From assembly GCA_000004985.1 (NCBI GenBank), contig GG738883.1: 64,000 nt of DNA. One strand, 5' to 3'. How positions within the stretch are numbered: the first letter of the stretch is position 1; every line of letters starts with the position of its first letter. Made by a program: the position numbers and the translations under genes. This DNA is from Naegleria gruberi. Its lineage: Eukaryota. The notes beneath the pieces were generated by a model that was not told the DNA's origin, made no database searches, and worked only from the letters and a program-made list of their open reading frames with translations. Positions 20,801 through 56,019 of the stretch are shown here, piece after piece.

Positions 20801-23479
20801 CGAGTCACACTCTTTGAATTTGGAAAGGAATTTCTCTCTCGAATATCTTACCATTCCTCTCAAAATTTCAATACCATAAGTCCATGGTTGGATGTGAACA
20901 AAATGATTTGGTGAATTTTTTTCCATCTTTTTCACAAAGAACATGTGGAGAATGTGAGGAAGAACTAAATCGAGAGCATCAGGTGGAAGAGCCATAATAC
21001 TCTCTTGGAATTCTTGTGAATTATTTGGTGGTTTGATTTGTCTCAATACAAAATTATATCTTTCCAAATGACTCTGAAAGAGGTATAAATTTGAGAGAAC
21101 CCAATGACAATACTTGAAATATTCTGGAAAATATTTTTTGGATTGGTTAATAAAGAGTGCCTTCTTTCCTTTTGAAAGATTGATATCAATTAACTTTTCA
21201 ACAATGGAACGAGCAGGTTGACTGATCTTTTTCAATGCAGGTACTTCTGGTTGATGGTTCAACATTCCAGTCTCCCTAATATACTTTTCAAGAGACCTCG
21301 TATTAAATAATGGCTCAAAAGTATAGAGAGAGGCTAGCAAACATCCAACAGCAAACATGTCATCATTATAAAGCTCGCCTTTGGATTGAACTCGAGAACG
21401 ATTAATCTTTTCAATGAATGGTACAACATGATAGGCAGAGCTGGTAAAGTACTTGCTACTGAATTTGACAGAATTTTCATACAAGTGCATTCTCTCCATA
21501 ATAGAATTTGATGTGGAATATCTAGGGGGGTGTGGTTCGAAGAATAATTGAACAAATCCAAAACGTGAAGGATACAAGTCGTTATTTTCCTTTCTCAACA
21601 TGACATTTTTAGCTTCAATGGCATGGTGTCCACTAAGCTTGTATCCAAAAATCAAATCAATCCAATGATGAATATTCTGACTCACATAGTCACTCTCCAG
21701 GGCAGCTTTATGCTTTTGAATAAATTCTTCAGGTGTAGAAGCCCACGGCGGCAATACTAAATCAGTCATGTCTGTATGAATGGAAGTGAACATGTTCGGA
21801 TCAGTGAAAAATTCTGGAATGCATTCATCTGGAGTCCACTGATAGAGACGAACAATGGAATTTGGATATTCTTTTGGTTCATAGTTTTGTCTGACAAATT
21901 TCCTCAATGCACTAATAGAAACTCTTCTTGCCTTGTAGATAAAGTAGGTAATTTCAGAAAGTGGCTCTGTAACGTGATGAGGATTATCTGGTGATTGATA
22001 GGTAAAATCCAACATTTCATCTCCCTTATTGAGTCTGAATTTAGTTTTGGTTAAATCTCTCCATTCAACACGTGAGTTTGGATCGGTTGGGTCACTCTCA
22101 AAATCAATAATCCATGGCAATACAGGATGATACTGTTGATCACCAAGTCTCCTCCCAGCAAGAGCATTAAGTTTCATCAAGTAGTCAAAATTTGAAATTT
22201 TACCCTCCTGCCATAAGAGAACTAGATCTTTGGTTCTATTCTCGGAAATGTTCTGTGGTGACAATAGGGTACTATTATTTCCAGCTGTACCAGTATTGGA
22301 TGTTTTTGAGGGTGATTTAAATTCTGCCATTGGTGTTTGTAAAACGTGATGATGATGATCAGAGATGTGTTCTGGAGTATAGAGTATATCCTGTCCAATA
22401 ATTGAAATCCACAACATTTCATTGATTAGAATATTATTGGGTATTAATTTTCCATGAGCAATATTATTCTTGTGACAATGTGAAACTGCCTGTAATAATT
22501 GATAGAATAAAAATCTTCTACGAATGTCATCTAAATTAATTGAATAAAAAGTTAATGAAATAATGAAACAATTATTAAAAAAAAACAATATAAAAACAAA
22601 CCTGTTTCAAGAAGAACCTTATTGAATTGAATCAATTCTTCCCAAGTATAATTGTACATTTCCAAAACAATAAACCAAGCATTTTTACTTTCATAAACAT
22701 CGTATAATAATGGTATATTAGCGTGCTATAAATAATAGTATTTCAATAATTATCATTTCCAAATGAATAAATAATTGATAATAAACAAATTTTAATAATG
22801 TTGATAAGTTAAATATTTAAAAATAATTATAACATACCTTTGGAATAAAAGGACCGTCAAATAATATAAAAGTTTCATCCAAATCCCCATGTGAAGGATT
22901 ATAAAAAGTATAATCATCCAAAATTAATTGATTTAAATGATAAATTTGTGATAATGAATGATGTATGGCCTTTCTAATTGAATGATTAGATTTTCCATCT
23001 CCCATTTCAAATTGTTTCGGAATGACTCGTACCACTACATTTACTTCATCGGGTAATAATGAAAGTGGAATACTATTATTTGAAATGATATTATGATGAT
23101 TAGAATTGTTATTATTGTTACTATTATTAACATTGTTATTATCCAAATTATTATTATTCAAATTATTCACATTATTTTCTTCATGTAATTGATCCTGTTG
23201 ATCTTGTTGATTCATTGTTGGAGATATTGATGATGAAATTGATGGTGATGAATTTAATTCATCTTGTTGTGATAAATTTTCATCATCTGTTAACACATGA
23301 TTATCAAAAGTAGGCCTCTTTTTATAAATCTTGGATCGTTTACTATTATACATTTTGCAACAAGCATAGGAACATTTTCTCGTATATTCGGGACTCAACA
23401 TGTACTGATACTCGATGAGAGTCGGCGAGAGATCCTGTTCAATATATTCTCTCACTTGACTCGCATTTAAATTTCCCAT
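17900..23479 (-). CDS. Giant kinase-like + BEACH + WD40 protein (WDR81/BEACH-family-like), N-terminal MGxxxS myristoylation motif
   Basis: Exons 22838..23479 (MGNLNASQ..., poly-Asn tract), 22602..22725 (HANIPLLYDVYESKNAWFIVLEMYNY, a kinase N-lobe-like segment) and 17900..22530. The kinase-like region lacks HRD/DFG but has HGKLIPNNILIN. BEACH core: NFDYLMKLNALAGRRLGDQQYHPVLPWIID...WIDLIFGYKLSGHHAIEAKNV. C-terminal WD40-like repeats. Phase-consistent GTATGT/GTTTGT introns. Confidence 0.65.
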
Positions 23480-27763: not shown

Positions 27764-30480
27764 ATGTCGACAACAAGTCACTTCAGTGATGAAAGTCTGC
27801 ATGATGATAATTTATTTGCAGAACATCCGATGGGAATTTATGATCAAGAAGAAAATCTTTACAAACACCAGCAACAAATCTATCGACCACTGAAGAAACT
27901 TTCCTCCACACAATTATCCACAGTTTACCTTTGTGAGAATTCTAATGGAAAACTTGTTGTATTAAAAGTTGCATCCTATGAAAATGAACAAGATACCATC
28001 GAGTGGAATCCGAAATTAGTTGAAGAATCGAATAGACTACATACACAATATCTACTTTATATTCTGGATGTTTTTACAGTGGAAAAAACCAATGGGAAAT
28101 ATTTGTGTGTAGTTTCCGAATATTGTGAGAATGGGAGTTTAGCAACAAGTATTGATGCTTTGCGTAAATCAATGAATGTTTCGTTATTCCTTCAGATATT
28201 ATTTCAAATGTTGCGTGCTTTGGATGCTCTTCATTTTGGTCTGTTTGTTCATGCTGATGTGAAGTTGGATAATATATTTGTGAGGAAATTTGATAGAAAT
28301 AGAGTATTTGTGGTATTGGGAGATTTGGGTTTAAGTTCCAAGATGGATTTTACTGAGGAGGAATTGTCTCAAAATTGTATTGATGTAGATAATGAACTGA
28401 CAACAGTCACTACAGGAGAAATTGGAACCTTTTCGTATAGAGATCCAATAATAATGAAACGAAGAAAAGTGTATTTCAAAAGTGATATTTGGAGTTTAGG
28501 TATGTTTCTCTTTTTTCTATTTGAGAATTGAACCTAATTTCTAAAGGAATAACTTTATTGAAATTGATATCAAGAGACGAAATGCCCAATTTTGAATCGA
28601 CAACAACAGAAGAAAGACTCAACACCATTCGACAAATATTTTCCCATTTTGAGACTGAAAAAAAAGAATGGGAAGTTTGTCAGAATATTATTGAACGAAT
28701 GTTAGTGGAAGATGTTACAGAGAGAGCAACTATTTCAGAAATTCGTTTAATGATTTATTCTACAACTATTGATGACTCATCATTTGAAAACAATTACCAA
28801 CATTTAAGGGAGGAATTCAAATACAACAGATCTGTAATTATTAGCTGTCTAAATGCAAAGGGAAGCATTTTACAACATGTACCTGATGCATTTCATTTCA
28901 ACAGAAAAATTGTAATGGAAGCAATTCACAATAATCCAAGCGCTTACCAATACATCAAAGGATACTTGAAATACCAACCATATATTGTAAACGCAGTTAT
29001 AGAAAGAGATCCATCTGTTCAAGTACCAGTTCATTTGGTAAAAGCTCCTTCACATTACGTTGCTAATAGCATTATCATTGAGCTTTCGGAACAAGAGAAG
29101 AATGACAAAGGGTTATTTATGGAAATTCTTGAAAGAGATGGTACGAGTTTAAAAGATGCCTCTTGGGAATTGAAAAATGATAGAGATTGTGTTATAAAAA
29201 GCGTAACACAGAGAGGAATTTCATTACAGTTTGCCTCAACTGATTTACGAAATGATGGAGAAATTGTGAGAATAGCTATTTCACAAAATGGAATGGCCTT
29301 AGAGTACGCTCATCCATTATTAAGACAAAGAGAAGATATTGTGATGAAAGCTGTTTCACAAAATGGATTGGCACTTCAATTTGCTTCAATAGAAATGAGA
29401 AATAATCAAAGAGTTGTGGAAAGGGCTGTATTGTCTGAATATACAGGCCAATTATTGTTTCTGATTGGTGAGGAATTGAGAAGTGACGTATCGTTCATGG
29501 TAAGATTGCTTAGTCTTAATCAGTTATTGTTTTTTCAATATTTGTTTTCTTTTGGAGAAGAATCTTTCAGAAATCTATGTGATGAGTATCAACATGAGGA
29601 TCAGTTTATTTGGTGTCTCAATGGATTGTTCGGCATTTTCGAAGATAACATTAATGGAGCACTGAAATATTTTCAACTTGCTGCAGAAAAAGACAATGCG
29701 TCTGCTGAACACTTCCTCGGTATAATGTACCATAAAGGACAAGTTGTGGAACAGGATTTTTGTAAGGCTTTTGAATGGTTTGGTAAATCAGCTGAAAAAG
29801 GATATCCAGAAGCTCAATTCTCGATTGGGTTAATGTATTATCACGGAGAATATGTTTCAAAAAATAAGGAAAGAGAATTTTATTGGATTTATAGAGCTGC
29901 TGAGCAAGGACATGTTAAGGCTGAAAGTTCTATTGCTTGTCTTTATTATGCTCAGGAAGAATATTCCAAATCATTTGAGTGGTATTTGAAAGCAGCTGAA
30001 AAAGGAGATTCAGATTCTCAATTTGAAATAGGTTCACTGTATCACAAAGGATTGGGAATACCAAAAGATTTTACAAATGCCTTTAGTTGGTATTCGAAAG
30101 CTGCAGAACATGGTCATTCGAAAGCTCAAAATAATATTGGAGTATTGTATCAAACAGGACAAGGTATTCCACAAAATTATTCCAAAGCACTTGAATGGTT
30201 CATGAAATCAGCTGAGAATAATGATACAGATGCCATGAATTTTATTGGACTGATATATCAAGAAGGCCAAGGAGTTCCACAAGACAACATCACAGCATTC
30301 GAATGGTTTCTAAAAGCAGCCGAATGTGGCAATGTACAATCTCAAATACTTGTCGCTACCATGTATCATCATGGTATTGGAGTGGAGCAAAACTTGTATG
30401 ATGCACTGAAATGGTATGAAAAAGCTGCAGGAGGAACTCAGAATAATTCAAAAGCTGATTCCAAAGAAATTGAGAATTGA
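27764..30480 (+). CDS. Atypical protein-kinase-domain protein fused to ~38-aa tandem repeats and C-terminal Sel1 repeats
   Basis: Exon 1 27764..28499 and exon 2 28547..30480 (intron GTATGT...AAAG). Kinase-like motifs include VVLKV, HADVKLDNIF (HRD becomes HAD), DLG (in place of DFG) and GTFSYRDP. Four or more repeats of the type EIVRIAISQNGMALEYAHPLLRQRED. Seven or more Sel1 repeats (e.g. AEHFLGIMYHKGQVVEQDFCKAFEWFGKSAEKG). Confidence 0.65.
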
Positions 30481-34524: not shown

Positions 34525-35766
34525 ATGAAACAAGCAATCATGACTCTCAAGTTTACAAGTTTCCTTATTGCCTCAATAAGCATGTTGTTTATATATCTCT
34601 CTGTATGTCAAGTTGTTGATGCAGCAACGTGTACCAATAGTCAAGGATGTGGCGTAAGGGCATTCCTTGCAGATCTTCAACAAGAGGTTTCTCAATTAGA
34701 TTGTATCAGCAGCAAGTTGAATAATAGCATTGCAATTTTGATGTCTACAAATTCCTCAGCATTAAATTCTCAGATCAAGACCAGAGTCAAGCAATTGAAC
34801 AAGATTGAGGCTGCTAAAAAGATGTTGTCCTTAGAAATAGCTCCATTGAATGATCAATGCAACAAACAAGACGGAGACAATTGTGACTTGGCATGTTTTG
34901 GACTCGCTCCTTCCAAATATCCTTCAACAGTTTGTTCTGGTCATGGAGTATGTTCTTCTCTTGATGTCTGTTCATGTTATCCAGGATGGTCAGGTAGTAA
35001 TTGTTCTCTCGCTTCATGTAATGGAATTTTAGCAACCAATACAAGCTCTGTTTGTAATGGTCGTGGCACATGTGTTTCCAACAATACTTGTGTTTGTAAT
35101 AGTGGAGTGTATGGTCCTTACTGTGAACCAATCATTATTACTGGAGATGATACAACAGGCAGAAGAATGGCCAATGGTGTGGCCAAGGCAAGTTGTTTGG
35201 AATTTTATCAAGCTTATCCATATGCAGAATCTGGTTTTTACTACATCAAGCCACAAACTACTGAAGTATTAGTGTATTGTAATATGACTATGAGTGGTGG
35301 AGGTTTCACATTTGTTCGTCGTGTTGCAGCTGCAGGTTGGTGGCCTTTGAATGATAATTTTGGTGGAAGCGGTTCTGGAATTTATAATCCAAGATCATTA
35401 TCAGCTGCTGGTGTTACATTTGGTCTCGATTATTCCAACATTCCTAGAACTCAAGTATTAATTACAACAGGTGATGGTGTGCATTGGATTCTAGTTAATT
35501 TGGATCAACTCACTTCTGGATATGGTGGGAATGATTGTACAGCCACAATTACTCTATTAGCAAGTTCTATCAGTCCAAATACTCCTTATTCTGTACAAGT
35601 TTGCAAGAGAGGAAACTTTAATGAAGACCCATGGTTGACAACTCATAATCATTTTTACATGACAACAGATAGTGAAAGTCACAGTATGTTGTGGGGTGAA
35701 TCAAGTAATACCTATTGGCCATATTGGAAGACTAGTCATGGTGGTATCAATGTGTTTATTAGATAA
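34525..35766 (+). CDS. Secreted protein with tenascin-type EGF repeats and a fibrinogen C-terminal-like (FReD-like) domain
   Basis: Signal peptide FTSFLIASISMLFIYLSVCQVVDA. EGF-like Cys spacing (CSGHGVCSSLDVCSCYPGWSGSNCSLASC; CNGRGTCVSNNTCVCNSGVYGPYCE). Then ASCLEFYQAYPYAESGFYYIKPQTTEVLVYCNMTMSGGGFTFVRR, which resembles the FReD core SGxYxIxP...VYCDM..GGGWTVxQRR. Confidence 0.55.
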   Translation: MKQAIMTLKFTSFLIASISMLFIYLSVCQVVDAATCTNSQGCGVRAFLADLQQEVSQLDCISSKLNNSIAILMSTNSSALNSQIKTRVKQLNKIEAAKKMLSLEIAPLNDQCNKQDGDNCDLACFGLAPSKYPSTVCSGHGVCSSLDVCSCYPGWSGSNCSLASCNGILATNTSSVCNGRGTCVSNNTCVCNSGVYGPYCEPIIITGDDTTGRRMANGVAKASCLEFYQAYPYAESGFYYIKPQTTEVLVYCNMTMSGGGFTFVRRVAAAGWWPLNDNFGGSGSGIYNPRSLSAAGVTFGLDYSNIPRTQVLITTGDGVHWILVNLDQLTSGYGGNDCTATITLLASSISPNTPYSVQVCKRGNFNEDPWLTTHNHFYMTTDSESHSMLWGESSNTYWPYWKTSHGGINVFIR

Positions 35767-39677: not shown

Positions 39678-41561
39678 TTAAAGAAGGAACAAGATAAGCA
39701 CAATCAAGCAAGAGAAATACTTCAAAGTCATACTGATGGAGACACTTCCACTTACTTGTGCCAAAGGAGCCAACAATACATTTCCACTCAAATTCTTTGT
39801 TTGACAAACAACTGAACCATTTTGGTTAGTAGTAATAATTGTTGTATCCACACTAACAGTCTCTGTAGCCCTATCATATCTTCCACAAATTGGAGTCATT
39901 GTACCAGAATATGGGATTGTAATCTTGATATAACCGTTGACAATACCATCAGCTATAGTACCATTTTCAAAAAGTGGAATAAAATCATAAACCTTAGATA
40001 CCATTTTCAATGAAGATTCTCTTTTTTTTGTTGGCTGTACAGTTCGAGCATTTGCTAAAACAGCTTGAATGCAATAATTAAATTCGTACTTGTCTGTAAT
40101 TAGGAAACATGCCAAGAAACGAGTTTTTGAAGTTGCCATTTCAATAGTAGAGGAACCAACAGGAATTAAACTAGCTCCCTTAGCAACTGCCAAATCAATG
40201 TTAGCGCTACTTGCTGTGACAACATCACCAAGTGTGAGAGCTGGTGTTAATTTCGCACCAATGGACTTGGCCAATAAAGATGACTTGTCGTTAGATGTCA
40301 ATAACAAGGCATTTGAGGCAACATTAATAACAGATTTAACAATGTCAGGAGAGAATTTAGAATTACGAGTAGATTCAATTAATGCATCTAAGGCCTTATT
40401 AGCAGACGTTTGTGTAAGTTCACCAGCAACTGAAGTGACAGATTCAAGTACTTTCACTACAGCCCCAAGATCACCTGAAGCAATATCTTTGGAGAGTGAT
40501 GTAATAATAGTATTTCTTATGGCTGCCTTTGTTGAAATTTGAGAATTATCACTTGTTGAAACTGTATTCAATAGAGAGGCAACACCTAACAAGTCTCCAA
40601 CAGACGAATTAGTGGAAAGGAGGTTAGATATGAGTGTAATAGCTTGACTAGTTGGCAAATTTGCAACTGGATTGGTGAGTGGAATGGTAGTCAATTTTTG
40701 AATACTGACGGATTTAGAACCATATGTTGCAACATAGAGATCAATTGAATTTTTACCAGAAAGTAATGGTAAAGTAAATGTAGCTGGATTTGGTGACACC
40801 TCGGTAAGAATTGTAATGGCGTCAGAATCAGCAAAACCAAATCCATAACCAAAATCAGAATCAGAATATGGATTAGAATTACCAGTAATAGTCAACTTGA
40901 AATTGGTTTTACCAGCAATGCCTGATGTAATAATTTGATTTGTGTTGGCATCTTGTAACAAGAATGTCAATTTTGGATCTTGTTGAACTACAATTGTAGT
41001 TGATTCAGTGATAGTAACACTCAAGGAAGGAGTTGTAACTTTGGCAGTCAATGAAAAACCATAAGTATTACCAGATTTAATACCATTATCAAGAGACAAC
41101 TTGTCTACCTTTCCAGGGATTTTCAATTGTGGTCTATTTAAATACCCTGCAACTGATGCCAAATCAAAAGCTGGACCAGAAACTTGTGACCAAGAATATT
41201 CAACATTAGAAATAACATCATTAGTGGCCAATGATGATATAGAAGATATAACCTGAACACCCAACATTGGGTGGGTGTATGCAGATGTTGCAACTGCACC
41301 AAAAACAGAACAATATTTACCATAAAATCGACTTGGACATGAACAAACACCAGCAGTACAACTACCATAACCACTACATTGTAGATAAACACCAATGGCT
41401 GTATCAATACATTGTTCTTCTTCTTGATTTCTCTTAATTGTGAGGTGGTTAGGATCGGAGACAGCACCATATGATAGGCAACACATATATGAGGAGAAAA
41501 CTAACCAAGCAACTAGAAGAACCAGTTTGCTGGTTGTGTGCGTGTGGATGGTTGTTGCCAT
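39678..41561 (-). CDS. Large secreted Ser/Thr-rich protein with an N-terminal EGF-like module and a C-terminal hydrophobic (GPI-anchor-like) tail
   Basis: Likely start MATTIHTHTTSKLVLLVAWLVFSSYMCCLSYG (signal peptide). EGF-like CIDTAIGVYLQCSGYGSCTAGVCSCPSRFYGKYC. A ~500-aa S/T/N-rich region. C-terminal YFSCLIVLILFLL. Confidence 0.5.
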   Translation of the reverse strand: MATTIHTHTTSKLVLLVAWLVFSSYMCCLSYGAVSDPNHLTIKRNQEEEQCIDTAIGVYLQCSGYGSCTAGVCSCPSRFYGKYCSVFGAVATSAYTHPMLGVQVISSISSLATNDVISNVEYSWSQVSGPAFDLASVAGYLNRPQLKIPGKVDKLSLDNGIKSGNTYGFSLTAKVTTPSLSVTITESTTIVVQQDPKLTFLLQDANTNQIITSGIAGKTNFKLTITGNSNPYSDSDFGYGFGFADSDAITILTEVSPNPATFTLPLLSGKNSIDLYVATYGSKSVSIQKLTTIPLTNPVANLPTSQAITLISNLLSTNSSVGDLLGVASLLNTVSTSDNSQISTKAAIRNTIITSLSKDIASGDLGAVVKVLESVTSVAGELTQTSANKALDALIESTRNSKFSPDIVKSVINVASNALLLTSNDKSSLLAKSIGAKLTPALTLGDVVTASSANIDLAVAKGASLIPVGSSTIEMATSKTRFLACFLITDKYEFNYCIQAVLANARTVQPTKKRESSLKMVSKVYDFIPLFENGTIADGIVNGYIKITIPYSGTMTPICGRYDRATETVSVDTTIITTNQNGSVVCQTKNLSGNVLLAPLAQVSGSVSISMTLKYFSCLIVLILFLL

Positions 41562-42155
41562 ATGTTTTTTAAAGATCTTGATAAGGAACAAATGAACCTG
41601 TTGATGAAACTGTAGTTGCCAGTGGTGGGTTAACAATCAAGGATTCTTTAAGCGGATTGGGTTGTGGGCACATTTAATTTCAATCAAAAGTTCATCAGGA
41701 ATAAATTTGATATTGTATTATTTCACAAATTACTTTCTTTTCCAATGAAGATAAAAGATGAAGAGATAGAACCTTCCTTTTGATTTTATTCCTGGCTAAT
41801 GATGGAAAACAATGATGATGGTTTGTTTGGTGAATAATCGGAGCACCAACTTGAATTTTCCACGATGAAATATAAGTTTCCAATCACATGATGAAAATTC
41901 ACTTCTTAAAATTGATGTGAATTATTCTTTGATTTCATGATGTGAGAAATCACTCTGAAAATCAGCATTGCCACAAAGTACCTGTTGACGAATATTGTTA
42001 ATCCTGATTCAAATTTTACTATTAAAACTCCCAACCCCACCTCAATACCAAAAGTGTATTAAGTGTGAATAAAGCTCCGAGGAGTAAGTAGTTCTAATTT
42101 ACTGCCATCTTATTTCGAATACAGATGAAATGCACATTCTAACAAATTAAAAAAA

Positions 42156-44066: not shown

Positions 44067-46333
44067 ATGGCATCAACCGATAAGAAGAAATGGGAAGAAG
44101 CTGTTGAATGTATCCGAAACAATGATTATTCCAAAATTCGTTCCTGCTCACTTCATTCCATCATTAATAATGAATATGATGAACATTTTAATTTTACCTT
44201 GTTGAGATTGGCTTGTAATATGGAAAGAGATGAAATTGTAGAGTATTTACTGACTATTCCGAATATTGATGTGAATCGGATGGTACGTTTTATGATATTT
44301 AATATTTAAATATTTTTAAATATTTTGTAAAGACTCCGTTGGTTTATTGTAAAAAAGTGGAAATTGTAAAATTGTTACTGGGACATTCAAATATTAATGT
44401 CAATCAAGTAGTAAGTAGGAAATTGTGGGTTGTTTTAATTGTTGAATGATTTCTAGTCTGTAAGTTTAGAATAGTTTTATTGGAAACTAAAATAATTAGG
44501 AAGTATGTATGCTGTTTATTTGGAAATTTAGTAATATTCGGAATTGTTAGAATGTATGTTCAGCAATCTCTTGAAAATTAACTCTTTTGATTTTCTGGAT
44601 AAAATAGGTATTTGATAATCAGGTATGGTTCGAATAATTTCGAATAGCTAATTATCTATGATAATTTAGACACCTCTATACCGAGCATGTGTAGAAGGAA
44701 ATCTGGAAATTGTAAAATTATTATTGGAATCACCTTTTATTGATGTAAACAAATTCGTAAGTTTACTATTTATGGAAATTTAATTTCATAAATAGAATCC
44801 TTTGAAAGTTGCATGCAGAAATTGTGATATAGAAATTGTAAAACATCTGATCAATGCACCATCCATTAAAATTGATCCAAGCATATCCGTATGTTTCAAT
44901 TACAATGCAAAAGTTACCAATTTTGGATAAAGAAAGAGATTTTGGAACATGTTGAGGAAAATGTTAGAAAGGAAATGGATCTCAACAGCTTACTTTTGAA
45001 ATATTCGAATCATATTGAAATTATTCAACTACTGAATACTTCAGTAGACATACAGAACAAGATTGACCATTTATATGTGGAGTCAATCAAATATTTACTT
45101 GTTAGAATGATGTTTATTGGATCTGATTGGTCTAAAATTTCGGATACTGGAGAATTTATTTCATCGAACACAAATCTAAATGAGAAAGTAAGAAAATTAG
45201 TATTATCCTACATGGAATATAGCTCAGCCTTTGAACTCTTGCTTTTACAAACGAATAGGAAAGCCTTAATGACCCTTCCTTTAAAACACGTGCTTTCTCA
45301 CAAGAAGGATCAATTTATTTCATGGGAGGAATATGTTGTTTACAATTTGGCTGAATTAATTGCATACAGTTATTCGAAAGTTCAATTTGAACCGAGGAAA
45401 GTTACAAAACTCTCAAATCCAAAAATTGAAAGCATGAATAAGACAATTCTAGGAAAAGGAGGTTACGGAACTGTGTTTAAGGTTAAATTAAACGAGAAGG
45501 ATGTCGCTGAGAAAGTAACTCACTTAATCTCTATTATTGAAATTGAAATACTTGAAAAGATTAATACCTACACAGGAACTGTGGAAATGCTACACCATTT
45601 GCAGTATGATGGAGGGTTTAGGCTATATTTTGAATTGATGGATAGCTCATTGAAAGAGTATTCGATTTGTGGAGATTCATTCCTGAAACTATTTCAAATT
45701 TTGATGGTCTTCTTGAAATGTTCTGGAACCCTCAATAGAATGCACCAAGATGGTATAGTGCACAATGACATTAAGCCTCCAAATATATTGGTTTCCAAGA
45801 TGGAGGTTGGTGGTGAAATACTTATTAAGGATGCCAAAATTGCTGACTTTGATGTTTCACAACAAATTGAGAAAACAGAAACATATAATGTATCGAGGGT
45901 GGGTACATTGGGTTATATGGCACCGGAATTGATTGCTTTAATTAATAATCAACTTCCTAAGGATTTTGAATTCAATAGAAAAGCAATTGATGTCTATAGC
46001 TTTGGAGTTACCATGTATGAATTACTATTTGGAGAAATATATTTGAAAGATAACAATGAACAACGATCTCTACTTTCATTAACCCGTATCAAAAACTCAT
46101 TAAGTGGTCTCATACTAGGATCTGACTCAAGTAGCAGATTAGAAGTTAGTTTAATGCAAAGTTATAATTTTCTAAATGGAGAACAAGTTGAAAAATTGGT
46201 AAATTTGGTAAATGCTTGCACATGTGTAGATCCCAAAAAAAGAAAATCATTTAGTGCCATTCAGGAAGAATTGCTTCAAATTACTATGGATATTTTCACT
46301 CAATACAGAAAAGGATATGTATTAGACTTTTAG
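44067..46333 (+). CDS. Ankyrin-repeat protein kinase
   Basis: Four short ankyrin exons (44067..~44283, ~44333..44409, ~44672..44757, ~44800..44888), each ending in a GTA(C/A)GT donor: TLLRLACNMERDEIVEYLL, TPLVYCKKVEIVKLLLGH, TPLYRACVEGNLEIVKLLLES, NPLKVACRNCDIEIVKHLI. Kinase exon to 46333: GKGGYGTVFKV, HNDIKPPNILV, DFD (in place of DFG), GTLGYMAPE. Confidence 0.6.
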
Positions 46334-48226: not shown

Positions 48227-49849
48227 TTAACCACCACTCTCAATATTATTTCTTGTCAAGAACACGTTATCATATTCGAAAGATAGTCTTTCTTTGAGAG
48301 CTTCTTCATAGGGAATAGCTGGGTGACCAATCTCACAAAATAGCCCTGCATGTCGTGCTAATTCAATTGCTATATCTTTGCTTTTTGAAATATAATTTAC
48401 AAACTCTGCTGCCATACCAGAACGCTGTTTTAGTGTGAACAAAAGCATTGACTCATCCGTAATGTACAAATGTCTAATATCGTTATTGTTTCGTATTAGA
48501 CTAGGATTTGCTACTAGTGCCCTTTTTATATAGTCTCTATCAGATAGTTGACTGTTTGTGAGTTTGTGTTGACTACCGAATGTTTTTGAATGTTTGAGAC
48601 ATTCAAGAAGGAATTCTTCATCCTCCAACATTGAGGGAAGTATATCAATGGTAATATCTTCTGATAAAGTCTTGATTATTAGATTCTTATTTGTCTTTAA
48701 ATGATGTGAAAGAAAGTGATAGACTTTCGGGTTCACTTTGAGTGCTTTTTCAGCAAACTCGATATCGTTCAGCAGATGATTTGGTAAATGTTTGATATAC
48801 TCTGATTTGACAATAGTTTCCAATATTAAATCTTCGGTCATTGAAGAAATTAATTGTTCTTGTAATAACTTGATTTCCCAACAAACATTAATTACATGTT
48901 CAATAGCTAGGGGATTTTGAGATAATGCTTGTTTTACAATATTCTTATCAGACCTCAATCGTATAGATGCATATTGAAGAGCCAAACCATTCTGCTTTAC
49001 AGCCAATAGCACAATTTCACTTTGATCTCTCATTACTTCATTCGCAAACTCCAGTGCAAGCCCATTTTGCTTCACTGCAATTTTAACAATAGAGTAAGGT
49101 ACATCTCTAGAGCAAAAATTCAGAGCCAATCCATTTTGTGTAACAGCAATTTGAACAATGTCTAAATCATTCTGAAATTTTGAAAATACTTTCAAATTGA
49201 GTCCATTCCAACTGATGAATAATCTGGCCAGTTTCTTATCCACCAGTTTCGATTCATCTAAATAATTAATATCTCCCTTTGCAGCAGCAGTAATAACATC
49301 CTCATCATATTCCAACTCATTTCCAATAAAGTAAATATTGAATGGATTGACTTTTAAAACTCTCAATATAAATTCCTTATTTTCCAAATACTTTGAGGGA
49401 AGATTATGCAAAGTAAATCCAGTTTTTTCCATTGCAACCTCAATCACATCTTCATCATAGGCAATACTCGGATCTCCATAGTGAATCATTGCTCCAGACA
49501 TTGAGAGGGCCCTCTTTAATATTTCCTTATCTAACAACCATGAAGGAAAGGAACCTCTCGCATGATCAATATAAAGTTGTCCATTTTGATTCACTGCCTC
49601 CAATACAACATTTCTACAGGCCATAAACTCGACAGGAATCAGACGAATTTCCCTCCACGAAATTATACTCTTTAATTTCCATGTTTTTAGTTCAATATTG
49701 AGAAAATCATCTCTTCTTCGGAACCATTTGCACAGATTTTCCTGTTGACTATTAAATTTTCTTCGTAATAATTTGCTGTAAATTCCCTCCGATAATTGGA
49801 AATCTATTAATTCAAAAATCACCAGAGCAGATGTTGGATCTAAATGCAT
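48227..49849 (-). CDS. Protein composed of the same ~38-aa tandem repeat module found in the kinase-Sel1 gene
   Basis: 540-aa ORF. Repeats include DQSEIVLLAVKQNGLALQYASIRLRSDKNIVKQALSQN and DLDIVQIAVTQNGLALNFCSRDVPYSIVKIAVKQNGLALEFANEVMRD, very similar to 29230-29420 in the + strand gene. Confidence 0.5.
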   Translation of the reverse strand: MHLDPTSALVIFELIDFQLSEGIYSKLLRRKFNSQQENLCKWFRRRDDFLNIELKTWKLKSIISWREIRLIPVEFMACRNVVLEAVNQNGQLYIDHARGSFPSWLLDKEILKRALSMSGAMIHYGDPSIAYDEDVIEVAMEKTGFTLHNLPSKYLENKEFILRVLKVNPFNIYFIGNELEYDEDVITAAAKGDINYLDESKLVDKKLARLFISWNGLNLKVFSKFQNDLDIVQIAVTQNGLALNFCSRDVPYSIVKIAVKQNGLALEFANEVMRDQSEIVLLAVKQNGLALQYASIRLRSDKNIVKQALSQNPLAIEHVINVCWEIKLLQEQLISSMTEDLILETIVKSEYIKHLPNHLLNDIEFAEKALKVNPKVYHFLSHHLKTNKNLIIKTLSEDITIDILPSMLEDEEFLLECLKHSKTFGSQHKLTNSQLSDRDYIKRALVANPSLIRNNNDIRHLYITDESMLLFTLKQRSGMAAEFVNYISKSKDIAIELARHAGLFCEIGHPAIPYEEALKERLSFEYDNVFLTRNNIESGG

Positions 49850-49986: not shown

Positions 49987-52900
49987 TTAGTTGGATTTTG
50001 ATTCGAGAATTGATTTCAGCTTATTCAATTCTGACATAATCTCAGTAAATGAAGGACGAACAGACGGATCCTTATCCCAACAAACTTGCATCAGCTCAAG
50101 ATACTTCCTAGTAAATTCTGATAATATCTCCAATGGCAATTTCTTCTCTGTTGGTAACACAAACTCACTCAACCAAATATTCATCTCCTCATTGGTAGAG
50201 AAGGGTATTTTAGGTCTTGACCCCTTTAACACTCTGCATAGAATAGTATATTCATTCGTGCTGTTTGTTGCATCATTTGATCCAAATCTGTGAATTTTGA
50301 AAACTCTGGAATTACAATAACAGTGTTCCTCAAAGAAAACTTCCCACATAATAATGGAGAAACTGTACACATCAACTTTGGTGGTATAGGATCCACTTTC
50401 AATCATTTCGGAGGCCATGTAGAAAACTGTGCCGATGTTCTTAGTTGAGGCACTATCAGTGGGTGTTGATAATCCAAAATCTGAAACCTTTCCAACAAAA
50501 TCATTACTAATGAGTATATTTCCTGGTTTTAAATCTCTATTTATGGAAATCAATAAAAAAACTTAAATTAACTAAAGAAACATACCTGTGAATCAATGGA
50601 GGATTCAATGTGTGAAGATATTTCATTCCATTGGCAATTGAAATTAAAATATCAAGTTTTCCTTTCAAATTCAAAGGAGAAACTCCTATTCTTGAATTGT
50701 AAATCAATCGATCCAAACTTCCATTACCAATGTACTCCACAACCATGTATTTGTTGTTGGAGGTCTTGGAAATTCCATAAAATTTGACAATATTTGGATG
50801 AGATAAACTATTTAAAATTGCTGCCTCTCGTTCAAACTCACCAACTTCATCACCGGTAGTATCTGACTTGAGTGCTTTGATGGCAACTTGTTTACCTTTC
50901 CATTTACCCAAATAAACAACACCATTACTTCCCTCTCCTATTTTCTTTTCAATTGAAATTTCCTCAATTGGAATAATCAAAGATTGTGAAGTAAAGGATT
51001 TATCTGAAGTTACCAAAAGTGGTTGACTTAAAGAATTGAATGAATTTTCAATAATTACGTCTTCCAAATTCTTTTCGGCAATTTCCTTTCTCTTGAGAAG
51101 GTTTAGTTTCATATAAACATGTCTCACTCCTCTAAAAGTAAGAAACAATAAAAGAATGATAAAAATCATTAAGAGAATTCCAAGAACCACACTGATTGGA
51201 ATTATTATTTGCTCAGAATTATCAGTATCAATACAAACAAAACCAGTAGAAAGTGGATTTTGAAGTACTTTTCCTTTTGGACAATCTGCAATATTAATAG
51301 TGATATTTTGAACAATATTTTGGATTGTAATATATCCATGCACTTGTCTCAGTTGCATTTTGTCTATGTCAAGTGAATAGGTTACAGAATTAAGTTGATT
51401 TGGAATAAGCTTTTTCGAATAAATCGTACCCTCTGATAAGGAAACAACGTCCACTTGACTTTGTAATTTCTTGACTGAAACCCTTTCTCCTTTACCCGTA
51501 TAGGTCTGTAAATTTCCTATACTAATGGTCAGCTCTTGTCCTGGGTATTGTGAATAGATAACATCTTGGTTTTGAATGAATTTGGAAACAACACTAGTAG
51601 CAGATATAACTTCTACAGTAAATGTTATATTATTTAGAGGTTCTCCAATGATATCTCCATATGATCCGGCTTCATTATTATCCTCCATGAGAAAACTTGA
51701 TACAATAATATAAGGACCTGGCTCTGAAATATAAATACAACCTCCTGAGAATACAGCACGATTGTATGAACACTTCAAATAATCCAAAAGCACTAATGGT
51801 TTTGGGTTTTCAACAAAAATAGCACCTCCAAGTTGTGCCGTATTATGTGTATTCGTTGAAGCTCTCAAATCCAAAGCATCTGTTCCCAATAATTTGGCAT
51901 AGATAGCACCTCCCATTTGGGCACTATTGTTGTTTGCGAGTAGTCTTAATGAAATTGCCAATCCTTCAACATAGACAGCACCTCCTCTCACTGCCTTGTT
52001 TCCATTGAATGTGCAATCATTAATTTGAATGATATTTGCCTTTATATAAACTCCATGTTGTATTGTTAAATCACCATTGTAGTTAAAATCACAATAATTC
52101 ATTAATAAAGATGATTGGGCAACATCCATCAACGAATCAATACGTATGGAAATACTAGAATTTCTAAAGTTAGTTTGAAATAGTGCAATGTAATTACTTT
52201 GAGAAACGCTGATACCATTTTTAACATTATTGAAATTATTAGAGAGGAACATTGTTTGTAAAGTGTTAGCAATTTGGAGTACTGGACTGTTTGCCAGTAA
52301 ATTATGAAATTCATTGAATCCAATTTTTAAAGAATTAATGTTATAGGCGTAGAATTGAAATTCGCCATCACTCACATTGTTGTTTTCAAATTTTGAAGAT
52401 GCCAAAAAGCTCTGTCGAATGGTTACAGAGCCAGTGAAGGTATTTTGTGAAATTTCAGAGGTTCTACAAATCAAAAAATCAGAATCTTTCACTCTACTGC
52501 GCAATAAGGAAAATCTTAGCTCAACCATATTGTCTCTATCAGATAGAGAAGAGGAAATAAATTGATACTTTTCAATGGTACAATTATTGAAAAATGTGCC
52601 AGGATTTAAAGATGGAGTCTCTTGTGTGTGTTTGATGTTTTTAAGTGTGGAATTTGCAAAATTTGCTGTAACAGTTGCGTAAAATTCAACAAATTCTAAT
52701 TGAGAATTTACAACAGACACAGAAATTGTTCCAAACTGACGACTTGGTTCATAAATTACTGAATTAAGTAGAATGGAATTCTCAATCTCTATCAATGGAA
52801 CAGCAACCAAACTGTTGCCACCATTGTTCAAAGTAAAATCAAAAAGTTTCAATCCCGACAACTTTAATCCATTCATGGCATTTAAATAAGTAAAGAAAGA

Positions 52901-53278
52901 TCCTCCATTACATTCAAATTGAATCCTCTTACTTTGATCAAATGATTCCAAGATCAAACTTTGCAATGGTTGATAACATACTATTCCACACTTGTATTCT
53001 CCATCCATCAAGTAGACATGAACTCTAGAAAATCTAATAGAATTGGCATAGGAAATAGCCTCTTCTACACTCTTGCAAGGGTTATTAGGGGATGTACAAT
53101 TGCGTTCTGTATTTAAGGATGACGGCTTAACATAGACAAATACATAACCAGATGACAATTGTTGATCAAATGATGATGATGTCGTTGTTGTTGTTGAATT
53201 ATCAACCAGAGCATTAATTACCACTGGTAGGCACATGAAAAGCAAAAAGAAAATCGGGGATATTTTCAGTGGAGTCAT
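49987..53278 (-). CDS. Single-pass receptor kinase with a parallel β-helix (PbH1/GGA-motif) ectodomain
   Basis: Start MTPLKISPIFFLLFMCLPVVINA (signal peptide) at 53278. The ectodomain has GGAVYVEG, MGGAIYAKL, LGGAIFVENP and SGGCIYISEP β-helix repeats. TM segment IIPISVVLGILLMIFIILLLFLTF. The kinase is split by an intron (50537..50586; GTATGT...AATAG, phase-consistent): IGEGSNGVVYLGKWKGKQVAIKALK / ...HR|DLKPGNILISNDFVGKVSDFGLS...VDVYSFSIIMWEV. Confidence 0.65.
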
Positions 53279-53641
53279 TTTTCTTGTTTTTGGAAGTGGG
53301 AAGAGATTCCAGTTCAATTTAATCTGGATAGCTGCTGAGGTAGGCACATTCTTCTGATCTTTATCGGAGAAGTAACTGTAATTAAGTATCCTTACTTTCG
53401 AAAGTAAGTTGATGATAAACTTTGATGCAGACAATGTCAATACCATTGGAGTTCTTTAGATTTTTGGAGTTGTGATTAAAGTTGGGAACTGTCTGGCACC
53501 AATTACTTTGGGACTGACAATTACGTTAGGTATTTCATTGGGAACAGGTATTGGTCTATGTCTAGAATCCTTAGCTTTTATTCTCTCAAAAGTTTTTGTA
53601 ATTTTGTTAAAGAATCTCAAGACAACGACAATTGATTTTAT

Positions 53642-56019
53642 TTACAGAACAGAATCAAAATTCTTCTTTGCTGACTTTAGCTTATTCTTGATGGTATCAG
53701 TAAAGCTGGTATTTTTTGAATAATCATTTGGATTTGGTCTTTCTCTTCCATGCTTCTCGTAAACTCTATCTAGACGAGATTTGTGTGAACTTTTAGTTTC
53801 TTGTGGTTCTGAAAAGTCATCATAGTCATAGTTATCCTCATTCACTTCAACGAGTTTGATATTGTCATCAATCTCAATTCTTGTCTCAAAATCTTCATTT
53901 TCATCCAATGAAATATTAACAGCTGATCTCAAGTCGTTTTCTTCTAATTTGTCGAATGAGGAGGAAATCTTTTCAGCACTAACATTTTGAAGTTGTCTCA
54001 ACTTCTTAGCACGAGCTCTATGTAATATTTCTCTGCCTTCCAAAATTGTTTCGTCACTCATATTTGATCCAGTATAACTAAATCTTTGAATATTACACAA
54101 AGTTCCACATCTTTCAATAAGTTTGAACATTGTAATAAAGGCAACAACAATAATTAACAATGGGAAGTAATCGACAATAAAACCACCAAGTAAACCAAAA
54201 ATACGAAGACCATCTACTCTCAAAGCTCCATAAATTGCAAAGTAGGCAACACCATCATCAGGGTCGACACCAACCATCTGCAAAAAGTTGAAACACATAG
54301 TCGGAATGGCTCTGCACAATAAGAGAGCTGTATAGAATAAAGTGTAAGAGTCAGTGTGATGAGGAACCATTTGGAACAAGTACAAAATTCTAACTCTATA
54401 CATGGCAAAGAGGAGTGTTACAAGGATCAACCCCAAAATGAGAAGAGCAACTATCTGGATAGCAAAACGATCTCTCATAGACATGATTATCAACTCTAAA
54501 ATAGATAAACTCAATCTCTTGGTAGCATAAATGTTCTTGAAGAGAGGTGTAAATTCACACCACATGATAATCAAACCAAATGGAACGAATGCAAGAGCCA
54601 ATAATTTCAAAAGTAGAGATCTCAAATATTTAACATAAATCCACTCTGGTTTTTCTATAATTGTTTGTACAACCTTTGGTCTTGGACTACGGAATGGAGA
54701 AGCAACTTTCATGTCAGAACTGTTTTCCTTTGAGTGAATTACATCTTGCAAGATGAATGCCTTCTTTTGGAGATGTTTCCATTGATATTGTTTGGAACTA
54801 AACTCACGAATAGCTTTTTGGAGCAATCTGTGAATCTTTACACAATCTGATCTTGATAAATCTTCAATGTTTTTAGGAAGCAAACCATCATCAACATCTC
54901 TTGAGGTGGATCTTCTAATTGCCTTATTCAACTGTGGGTGATCGCGAATCACTTCTTCGACAGTCATCATTATACGCTCCACATTCTTAAATTGTTTGTG
55001 TGTTGAGTCGACCTTTCTTTCCAATATCTTACAAACTCCCAAATAATCCAACAATTCATTTTCCAATTCCTCTAATTCTTCCACAATAGTTGGTGTAGTA
55101 AATTCGTACAATTGCAATTGACGTTCGTCATTAGAGGTTTCCCATAAATATCTAGGAACTGCAATTATACCATAACCAATGAAACCAACCAACAAGACCA
55201 AACCATAAATATTGGATAAACTCAAACCCAGACCAGCTATCAAATCTAGTGAAATTATCTGAGCATTGGCTGGATCATTCGCATTAGAAATTGCAATGTA
55301 AATGCAAAATCCTCCCAAACCAAGACCTCCCACAAGTAACATAATTGAGTAGGTAATCAAGTTATCCAAAATAGCACGAAGCCATCTGAAAATTGCCAAG
55401 AATTCACCGGTATACAAGTAACTCTGGAAAATTGGTAGTAAAATCCAAGATAACACTTGTAGTGTCCAATATATAACTCTCCACATGGTTACAAGTGCCG
55501 GATCAGGCTTCATCTTTTTGTTTAATTTATCATTTGAAATTGCCTGTTTTCATCATCCACATGTTGTTTGTTGTTGTTGTTTAAATTCCATAATAATGAT
55601 TGATATGAAATTTGTATTACACAATTTAACCAAGTTTTAAATTCACAACATTATAAAGTTAAATTACTTACGGAAGCTAAATCTATACAACATAAGAAAA
55701 CAGCCAAGAAGAGCAATAAATAGGTAATTAACAATGGAATGTACAAGAACCAAGGGAATGGGTTCGATTTGGTGTAGTACCTCAACAGTGCTACAGAGGC
55801 AATGGTTCCTAAAATCAACGTAAAAGCCAAACTCACAAAGAAGAAGGCATCCATTGAGTGTTGTGTATCTACATTGGTTCCATTCGTAAAGTTATATGTA
55901 TTGTTGCTATTGATGATAGGTGGAGAAGGTCCAGCTAAAATACTATTAGCAATCGGATAGAGTATATTAGCCAAAAGGCTATCCGAGGTAGAAGAAGATA
56001 CCTCTCCCTGTTGATTCAT
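53642..56019 (-). CDS. LMBR1-domain-like multi-pass membrane protein
   Basis: Exon 1 55672..56019 (N-terminal TM helices), a 158-nt intron with GTAAGT donor, exon 2 53642..55513. About 9 TM helices with a central hydrophilic coiled-coil loop (EELEELENELLDYLGVCKILERKV), typical of the LMBR1/LIMR family. Acidic C-terminal tail. Confidence 0.4.

What the first reader, a model, noticed from the sequence alone, without database searches (positions are those of the whole stretch)
49987..53278. Receptor kinase with a PbH1/GGA-motif β-helix ectodomain
Seen in sequence: signal peptide, about 650 aa of β-helix repeats with recurring GGA(V/I)Y motifs, one TM helix, and a canonical active kinase (GxGxxG, VAIK, HRDLKPGN, DFG) whose coding region is split by a phase-1 intron. 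This architecture differs from animal RTKs and plant LRR-RLKs, and it would be an unusual receptor class.
Basis: partly seen in the sequence, partly recalled or inferred. Interest (0 to 1): 0.65.

Follow-up and report, generated by a model that had tools for sequence, protein, structure and literature searches.

The report
Naegleria beta-helix receptor kinase gene
This is a real, intact gene of the amoeba Naegleria gruberi for a single-pass membrane receptor that joins a bacterial-adhesin-like beta-helix outer domain to an active-looking protein kinase; I found this domain combination only in Naegleria and in no paper I could search.

Summary
On the minus strand, 53278 to 49987 encodes a 1080-aa protein. 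It has a signal-like N-terminus, a right-handed beta-helix ectodomain with four GGA(V/I)(Y/F) Chlamydia-PMP repeats, an unresolved 140-aa all-beta stalk, one TM helix and a TKL-group kinase with every catalytic motif.

Three corrections:
- The intron is 50537-50585: 49 nt, GTATGT..ATAG, phase 2 (not phase 1).
- The GGA motifs are confined to residues 421-520.

The gene is N. gruberi NAEGRDRAFT_50874, annotated "predicted protein". Ectodomain, TM helix and kinase N-lobe lie in one uninterrupted 2693-nt exon, so the "separate genes" refutation fails.

Relatives with the same architecture:
- one N. gruberi paralogue;
- one environmental contig with an intron at the identical site;
- N. fowleri, with one fused 1077-aa model and one copy split by a 1-nt indel;
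- two N. lovaniensis loci, annotated as split genes.

Most likely it is a type I receptor Ser/Thr kinase that senses a surface or glycan ligand. No expression or ligand data were available. It is a new variant of a known kind, of moderate interest.

The parts
49987..53278 (-). Whole CDS (two exons, 1080 aa, stop TAA at 49987-49989) of N. gruberi NAEGRDRAFT_50874
   Evidence: Identical to P0001/XP_002674641.1 apart from that model's 56 extra N-terminal residues.
53444..53446 (-). Upstream in-frame ATG used by the public gene model. It adds 56 aa and would bury the signal sequence. Which start is used is unresolved.
   Evidence: Homologues place their hydrophobic segment within the first 15-45 residues.
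53210..53278 (-). Signal-peptide-like N-terminus, residues 1-23 (MTPLKISPIFFLLFMCLPVVINA)
   Evidence: Hydropathy. No dedicated signal-peptide predictor was available.
51641..53146 (-). Right-handed parallel beta-helix ectodomain, residues about 45-546, including the conserved N-terminal NCTxxxNPC Cys pair (53075-53101)
51719..52018 (-). Four canonical Chlam_PMP units (FxxN...GGA[V/I][Y/F]), residues 421-520
   Evidence: Pfam PF02415, 22 bits against GA 20.6. Motif positions and shuffles. This is the only ectodomain part that matches prokaryotic proteins.
51212..51640 (-). Membrane-proximal stalk, residues 547-689, fold unresolved (predicted all-beta). Conserved YPGQ (51536-51547) and DCPKG-x11-C (51233-51286) motifs.
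   Evidence: Conserved across Naegleria homologues. AlphaFold failed, pLDDT 34. No Pfam hit.
51131..51211 (-). Single transmembrane helix, residues 690-716, followed by basic residues
   Evidence: Hydropathy up to 3.36.
50960..51130 (-). Cytoplasmic juxtamembrane segment, residues 717-773, with the conserved K-x-x-AE-x(3)-E-x-K-I motif (KEIAEKNLEDVI here)
   Evidence: Alignments. The same motif appears in other Naegleria TM kinases.
50026..50959 (-). TKL-group protein kinase domain, residues 774-1068, interrupted by the intron. GEGSNG 50921-50938; VAIK 50876-50887; HRDLKPGN 50518-50590 (spans the intron); DFG 50473-50481.
   Evidence: Pfam E 8.6e-54. Best PDB relatives are CTR1 (5e-44), TAK1 and MLKs. 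Coordinates.
50537..50585 (-). 49-nt intron, GTATGT...ATAG, phase 2, inside the Arg codon of HRD
   Evidence: Frame restored only by 49-nt removal. Identical site in L001 with a 52-nt intron. The paralogue model stops at HR. N. fowleri is intron-less at this site.

Best explanation
The locus is one intact two-exon gene, N. gruberi NAEGRDRAFT_50874. It encodes a type I single-pass receptor-like Ser/Thr kinase of the TKL group.

Shown here:
- A cleavable-looking signal sequence.
- An extracellular right-handed parallel beta-helix of about 500 aa. Its last four coils are canonical Chlamydia-PMP (FxxN/GGA) repeats.
- A conserved stalk of about 140 aa of unknown fold ending in a Cys-x15-Cys motif.
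- One TM helix, a conserved juxtamembrane segment, and a kinase with every catalytic residue.
- The gene belongs to a small multigene family found in N. gruberi, N. fowleri and N. lovaniensis. The ectodomain diverges fast (22-29% identity) and the kinase slowly (53-55%), as expected of a receptor.

Inferred:
- The beta-helix binds an extracellular ligand. Given what this fold and PMP repeats do elsewhere, the most likely ligand is a polysaccharide or cell-surface structure of bacterial prey, or another copy of the receptor.
- Binding clusters the receptor.
- The RD-type kinases then trans-phosphorylate their Ser/Thr-rich activation loops and signal into the cell, for example for adhesion, phagocytosis or chemotaxis.
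For: One exon covers ectodomain, TM helix and kinase N-lobe.

Pfam finds the kinase (E 8.6e-54) and Chlam_PMP above its gathering cut-off. All catalytic motifs are present.

There are only two hydrophobic segments, with a positive-inside arrangement after the second.

GGA motifs are 4 observed against 0.03 expected.

The fused architecture recurs:
- paralogue P0002;
- environmental L001;
- N. fowleri FDP41_001441, 1077 aa;
- collinear split copies in N. fowleri L002 and N. lovaniensis L003 and L004.

PMP repeats form beta-helix coils and mediate adhesion in Chlamydia and in trichomonads (PMC11166332, PMC10715098, PMC6701047).
Against: - No transcript, protein, localisation or ligand data were available to me.
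- The signal peptide is called from hydropathy only. The public model starts 56 aa upstream, which would make that segment internal.
- The ectodomain model is of middling confidence (mean pLDDT 60.7). Foldseek found nothing significant.
- Pfam Beta_helix does not match, and Chlam_PMP passes by only 1.4 bits.
- The stalk could not be modelled.
- The kinase has ASE in place of APE and an insert of about 40 aa in the C-lobe. Activity is not proven.
- The ligand class is an analogy, not a test.
Confidence: 0.75

Rival explanations
1. The ectodomain is a surface-tethered enzyme (polysaccharide lyase or hydrolase, as in most solved beta-helix proteins) rather than a ligand-sensing module. The kinase would regulate it or be functionally unrelated.
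Confidence: 0.1
2. The gene model wrongly fuses two genes: a secreted or membrane PMP protein and a separate kinase. This is how N. fowleri and N. lovaniensis annotations present it.
For: N. fowleri FDP41_009158 and both N. lovaniensis loci are annotated as a PMP gene followed 45-120 bp later by a kinase gene.
Against: In the window there is no stop between residue 1 and residue 898, and the same holds in L001. The N. fowleri split is a 1-nt indel: GGPSRISIFKL* against GGPFSDIHFQ in the fused 1077-aa model FDP41_001441. In L004 the TM helix lies in the annotated 'gap' in a shifted frame next to an A-run.
Confidence: 0.02
3. The gene is a decaying or unexpressed lineage-specific duplicate (pseudogene-like) with no signalling role.
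For: No expression evidence was available here. The paralogue model is truncated, and related copies in other species carry frameshifts.
Against: The 3.2-kb reading frame is intact, with canonical GT..AG splice sites. All catalytic residues are kept. The kinase is 53-55% identical to diverged homologues whose ectodomains are only 22-29% identical, which indicates purifying selection. The frameshifts sit at short homopolymer runs (T-run, A-run), where assembly indel errors are common. One of them is absent from a second N. fowleri copy.
Confidence: 0.06

Closest known systems
Trichomonad Pmp-like surface proteins (e.g. TVAG_140850, TVAG_249300; PMC6701047)
   Same: Eukaryotic membrane proteins whose N-terminal extracellular part carries FxxN/GGA(I/L/V) PMP repeats. 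A C-terminal TM helix replaces the bacterial autotransporter barrel. They have been shown to increase adhesion.
   Different: They have only a short cytoplasmic tail with endocytic motifs and an ATPITK motif, and no kinase. The Naegleria protein has only four canonical repeats, its own stalk, and a 360-aa kinase tail.
Chlamydial polymorphic membrane proteins (Pmp autotransporters; PMC10715098, PMC11166332)
   Same: GGA(I/L/V)/FxxN repeats, each forming a coil of a right-handed beta-helix. They function as adhesins.
   Different: Bacterial type V autotransporters with a PMP-middle domain and a beta-barrel. Neither is present here. Similarity is limited to about 100-150 aa at 30-35% identity.
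Entamoeba histolytica transmembrane kinases (TMKs, e.g. PATMK, EhTMKB1-9; PMC2880585, and the reference cited in PMC4053784)
   Same: Protist type I receptor-like kinases with a TKL-like catalytic domain. They are lineage-specific expansions, and some are implicated in phagocytosis and in serum sensing.
   Different: Their ectodomains are Cys-rich CXXC-type repeats (from my own knowledge), not a beta-helix. There is no close kinase relationship: Entamoeba hits are about 31-32% identical.
Plant RLK/Pelle receptor kinases and Raf-like CTR1
   Same: Single-pass receptor Ser/Thr kinases related to the TKL group. CTR1 is the best solved match to this kinase domain (E 5e-44). Plant RLKs include glycan- and cell-wall-sensing ectodomains.
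   Different: Plant ectodomains are LRR, LysM, malectin, WAK-EGF and similar, none a PMP beta-helix. CTR1 is cytosolic. No orthology was shown.
Bacterial Hanks-type Ser/Thr kinases with PbH1 repeats (e.g. Anabaena Pkn22/alr2502; PMC2176072)
   Same: They combine a eukaryote-like kinase with parallel beta-helix repeats.
   Different: They are prokaryotic. By my recollection (not checked) the kinase is N-terminal, the reverse of the order here. The repeats are the PbH1 type rather than PMP, and the kinase is not TKL.

Membership tests
Eukaryotic protein kinase, TKL group | Pkinase / PK_Tyr_Ser-Thr profile match above the gathering score | tested here: met
   183 and 175 bits against cut-offs of 23.1 and 31.7, residues 774-1068.
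Eukaryotic protein kinase, TKL group | Complete catalytic residue set: GxGxxG, VAIK Lys, alphaC Glu, HRD, catalytic-loop Asn, DFG | tested here: met
   GEGSNG, VAIK, EFEREAA, HRDLKPGN and DFG are all present. APE is ASE.
Eukaryotic protein kinase, TKL group | Nearest characterised kinases are TKLs | tested here: met
   CTR1 5e-44; then TAK1, TNNI3K, Roco4 and MLKs, interleaved with Tyr kinases at 1e-36 or weaker. No formal phylogeny was made.
Eukaryotic protein kinase, TKL group | Phosphotransferase activity and substrate specificity | not testable with these tools
   The HRDLKPGN catalytic loop is the Ser/Thr type. Dual specificity is not excluded.
Type I single-pass receptor kinase (architecture class) | N-terminal signal sequence | tested here: inconclusive
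   A signal-like n/h/c region at residues 1-23, from hydropathy only. The start codon is ambiguous, 53278 or 53446.
Type I single-pass receptor kinase (architecture class) | Exactly one TM helix between ectodomain and kinase, with positive-inside charges | tested here: met
   Residues 690-716, then R716, R719, K724 and K729-731.
Type I single-pass receptor kinase (architecture class) | Ectodomain and kinase encoded by one gene | tested here: met
   A single 2693-nt exon spans both. Fused in L001 and in N. fowleri FDP41_001441.
Type I single-pass receptor kinase (architecture class) | Ligand-dependent kinase activation | not testable with these tools
   Inferred only.
Chlamydial Pmp autotransporter family | Repeated FxxN and GGA(I/L/V) tetrapeptides (Pfam Chlam_PMP) | tested here: met
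   4 GGA-type and 10 FxxN motifs. PF02415 scores 22.0 bits against 20.6.
Chlamydial Pmp autotransporter family | PMP middle domain and C-terminal autotransporter beta-barrel | tested here: not met
   No such Pfam hit at E <= 1. The C-terminus is TM helix plus kinase. It is therefore not a Pmp family member and only carries the repeat.
Right-handed parallel beta-helix (pectin-lyase-like fold; PbH1 / Pfam Beta_helix) | Sequence profile match (PF13229 Beta_helix / PbH1) | tested here: not met
   No hit at E <= 1. SMART PbH1 itself was not available.
Right-handed parallel beta-helix (pectin-lyase-like fold; PbH1 / Pfam Beta_helix) | Three-dimensional fold | tested here: met
Trichomonad Pmp-like TM proteins | PMP ectodomain plus C-terminal TM helix plus short tail with endocytic motifs | tested here: not met
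   The first two features are present. The tail is instead a 360-aa kinase region (PMC6701047).
Animal receptor tyrosine kinases | Tyr-kinase catalytic loop (HRDLAARN / HRDLRAAN) and Ig/EGF/FN3-type ectodomains | tested here: not met
   The loop is HRDLKPGN, and no such ectodomain domains were found.

The most novel reading that the evidence does not exclude
Naegleria (Heterolobosea, Discoba) independently invented a receptor-kinase class. It did so by fusing a PMP-type beta-helix adhesin module, possibly acquired from bacteria by lateral transfer, to a TKL kinase. This small, fast-evolving family would serve as prey- or surface-glycan pattern-recognition receptors that trigger adhesion or phagocytosis. 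It would be relevant to how N. fowleri recognises host tissue.
Probability: 0.25. Interest if true: 0.65.

Novelty: new variant of a known kind. Interest (0 to 1): 0.45.

Why it matters
Receptor kinases have arisen several times, in animals, plants, Entamoeba and others, each time with different ectodomains. A Discoba-lineage family with a bacterial-adhesin-like beta-helix ectodomain would be another independent origin and a new ligand-binding scaffold for kinase signalling.

Surface recognition and adhesion molecules of Naegleria are described as still 'mysterious' (PMC8296547). N. fowleri carries homologues, which makes this family a concrete candidate for sensing prey or host.

A practical by-product: in the N. 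fowleri and N. lovaniensis assemblies these genes are mostly annotated as two or three separate genes because of single-base frameshifts. Domain-architecture surveys will therefore miss them.

Tried and rejected
It leaves the frame broken.
- Look-ups of the paralogue P0002 locus and of the N. gruberi partial kinase P0251 found nothing on record. I could not compare the paralogue's intron at DNA level or compute dN/dS.
- An AlphaFold model of the stalk (residues 520-700, 5-sequence alignment) failed at pLDDT 34. No fold claim is made for that region.
- afdb50 was unavailable. I could not check AlphaFold DB for the same architecture in other eukaryotes.
- A metagenome scan with the ectodomain alignment found no relative.
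- The profile search did not recover P0031 or the N. fowleri proteins. The exhaustive search lists only the best 150 of 1001 hits. Absence outside Naegleria is therefore not proven.
- Literature searches and checks in PMC8296547 (including supplements), PMC12757656 and PMC9907072 found no description of such a receptor. The PbH1 mention in PMC9907072 concerns a rhizobial protein, not the receptor.
- The N. gruberi genome paper is not held.
- I considered bacterial contamination or a recent transfer of the whole gene and rejected it. The gene has a spliceosomal intron, a eukaryotic TKL kinase and eukaryotic neighbours: EF-2, SAM synthetase, LMBR1-like and DUF4116 genes.
Full report
**Observation.**
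The finding's coordinates are the exact ends of a minus-strand coding sequence. The ORF listing shows a 969-aa ORF (50537-53446) and a 188-aa ORF (49987-50553) on the minus strand. Removing 49 nt (50537-50585, GTATGT...ATAG) gives one 1080-aa protein from ATG 53278 to TAA 49989-49987.

Exon 1 is 2693 nt, which is 897 codons plus 2 bases. The intron therefore lies inside the Arg codon of HRD (AG|A) and is phase 2, not phase 1. All feature coordinates were recomputed by script.

**Anatomy of the protein.**
A Kyte-Doolittle scan finds only two hydrophobic segments:
- Residues 6-25, a signal-like N-terminus (MTPLK + ISPIFFLLFMCLPVVI + NA).
- Residues 690-716, followed by R716, R719, K724 and K729-K731.

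This indicates a type I topology with about 665 aa outside and about 360 aa inside. The ectodomain has 9 N-x-S/T sequons and 13 Cys.

Pfam results:
- PK_Tyr_Ser-Thr at E 8.6e-54 and Pkinase at E 2.6e-51, residues 774-1068.
- Chlam_PMP (PF02415) at residues 421-437, 22.0 bits against a gathering score of 20.6.
- No Beta_helix/PbH1-type family at E <= 1.

GG[AC][IVL] occurs at 432, 456, 484 and 512, with spacing 24/28/28. That is 4 observed against 0.03 expected, and 0 of 20000 shuffles reach 4. FxxN occurs 10 times against 3.7 +/- 1.8 expected. The four canonical FxxN...GGA units are confined to residues 421-520. Upstream coils keep only degenerate F-x-N-N motifs.

**Fold of the ectodomain.**
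An AlphaFold model of residues 24-692 was built from a 13-sequence alignment. Its mean pLDDT is 60.7. Blocks run from 55 to 89 over model residues about 20-500, and the model is poor after 524.

I therefore accept a beta-helix for about residues 45-546. This is a model-based inference. A separate model of the membrane-proximal 547-689 region failed (pLDDT 34), so its fold is unknown. It carries family-conserved YPGQ, GER and DCPxG-x11-C motifs.

**Kinase.**
GEGSNG, VAIK, the alphaC Glu (EFEREAA), HRDLKPGN and DFG are all present. APE is ASE. There is an insert of about 40 aa in the C-lobe that is conserved among the Naegleria homologues.

The best solved relatives are Arabidopsis CTR1 (E 5e-44), then TAK1, TNNI3K, Roco4 and MLKs. 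Tyr kinases are interleaved at weaker scores. This places the kinase in the TKL group. The HRDLKxxN catalytic loop is the Ser/Thr type, and it is an RD kinase with a Ser/Thr-rich activation loop.

**Identity and relatives.**
The window is Naegleria gruberi. The protein is 100% identical to XP_002674641.1 / NAEGRDRAFT_50874 / D2VMX2, annotated 'predicted protein'. That model uses the same splice but starts at ATG 53446, which adds 56 aa. The genomic neighbours are ordinary eukaryotic genes: LMBR1-like, DUF4116, EF-2 and SAM synthetase.

An exhaustive HMMER search of the ectodomain against 1.84 billion representatives gave 1001 hits. All but two match only the PMP segment (about 390-550) and are large prokaryote-type repeat proteins. 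Of the best 150, only the paralogue P0002 and P0031 also contain a kinase.

- **P0002** (NAEGRDRAFT_76208) is 77-79% identical. Its model stops at ...HR, exactly at the intron site.
- **P0031** lies on a 6.1-kb metagenome contig (L001, GC 33%) and has the same architecture. It has a 52-nt GTTTGT...AATAG intron at the identical codon position. The flanking exons are conserved and the intron sequence is not.
- **N. fowleri.** The closest kinase domains are N. fowleri FDP41_009158 (55% identical) and N. lovaniensis C9374_008807 and C9374_013523 (49% and 42%). At the N. fowleri locus L002 a 629-aa PMP-type gene sits 45 bp upstream of the TM-plus-kinase gene. The two are collinear with the window protein (residues 45-547 and 547-1072), with a frame change at the junction. 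A second N. fowleri model, FDP41_001441 (1077 aa), is fused. It reads GGPFSDIHFQ where L002 reads GGPSRISIFKL*, a 1-nt indel.
- **N. lovaniensis.** L003 has the helix, stalk, TM helix and kinase in consecutive ORFs. L004 has an 806-aa signal-peptide-plus-PMP-helix gene directly upstream of the kinase gene. The TM helix sits in a shifted frame across the annotated gap, next to an A-run.

This is therefore a small multigene family across the genus. It is usually mis-annotated as split genes. N. fowleri has no intron at the HRD site. That shows the spliced N. gruberi product is the conserved protein.

Regional identity to the N. fowleri and L001 homologues:

| Region | Identity |
|---|---|
| Beta-helix | 22-27% |
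| PMP units | 37-40% |
| Stalk | 28-29% |
| TM helix + juxtamembrane | 36-45% |
| Kinase | 53-55% |

**Mechanism.**
The architecture and topology of a type I receptor kinase with a catalytically complete TKL domain are shown.

The rest is inferred. The beta-helix binds an extracellular ligand. Binding clusters the receptor, which allows trans-autophosphorylation and downstream signalling.

For the ligand I favour a polysaccharide or cell-surface structure, or homotypic association. Three points support this:
- PMP repeats form beta-helix coils and mediate adhesion in Chlamydia (PMC10715098, PMC11166332).
- TM-anchored Pmp-like proteins increase adhesion in trichomonads (PMC6701047).
- The fold's solved relatives are glycan-binding or adhesive.

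The enzyme alternative has no sequence support. The 'two genes' alternative is excluded by the continuous exon. The pseudogene alternative is unlikely, given the intact frame and the conserved kinase.

**Comparison and novelty.**
The protein works like other protist and plant receptor Ser/Thr kinases. It is not a member of the Pmp autotransporter family, because it has no middle domain and no barrel. It is not one of the trichomonad Pmp proteins, because it has a kinase in place of a short tail. It is not an animal RTK, an LRR-RLK or an Entamoeba TMK.

Bacterial Hanks kinases with PbH1 repeats exist (PMC2176072) but are unrelated in organisation. I found no paper describing a eukaryotic receptor kinase with a PMP/beta-helix ectodomain. 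The N. fowleri systems paper states that adhesion factors remain obscure (PMC8296547).

Limits on this claim:
- Only the best 150 of 1001 hits were visible.
- afdb50 was unavailable.
- The metagenome scan found nothing.

Restriction to Naegleria is therefore likely but unproven.

**Verdict.**
It is a new variant of a known kind and of moderate interest.

Noticed in passing
L002:4067-7800 (N. fowleri VFQX01000067.1); L003:4241-7650 and L004:2489-6375 (N. lovaniensis): Homologues of this receptor kinase are annotated as two or three adjacent genes (PMP ectodomain gene plus kinase gene). The breaks are single-base frame changes next to short T- or A-runs. A second N. fowleri model (FDP41_001441, 1077 aa) is fused. 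These are probably assembly indels that hide the architecture from domain surveys.
   Followed up: partly
window 53279-53446 (-): The public N. gruberi model starts at ATG 53446, 56 codons upstream of the ATG that gives a terminal signal peptide. Which start is used is unknown.
   Followed up: partly
window 48227-49849 (-) and 28528-30480 (+): Two DUF4116-repeat proteins (Pfam E 4.7e-56 and 1.4e-42). The second also has six Sel1 repeats. One lies immediately downstream of the receptor kinase gene.
   Followed up: no
window 53642-55513 (-): An LMBR1-like multi-pass membrane protein (Pfam E 4.7e-75) lies directly upstream on the same strand, 364 nt from the receptor's ATG.
   Followed up: no
window 44891-46333 (+) and 13832-14071 (-): A second, unrelated protein kinase gene (Pkinase E 6e-34, 27% identical to this kinase), and a short kinase-like tblastn match elsewhere in the window.
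   Followed up: no
window 17900-22588 (-): A 1562-aa ORF with a BEACH domain, and a kinase-domain fragment at its very start. It may be one exon of a larger kinase-BEACH gene.
   Followed up: no
window 34525-35766 (+) and 39678-41636 (-): Two ORFs with EGF-like/teneurin-type EGF repeats, possibly further surface proteins in the neighbourhood.
   Followed up: no
P0248 (ENA contig), P0251 (N. gruberi partial): Other Naegleria-type kinases share the Cys-TM-'AEK..E.K(I/L)' juxtamembrane motif and the C-lobe insert, but their ectodomains are cut off. The receptor-kinase clade may be larger and may carry other ectodomain types.
   Followed up: partly
P0216 / P0294 (Gefionella okellyi transcripts): A malawimonad encodes 1359-1654-aa Beta_helix plus Chlam_PMP proteins. 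P0216, the only one scanned, has no kinase. PMP-type beta-helix proteins therefore occur in other free-living protists.
   Followed up: no
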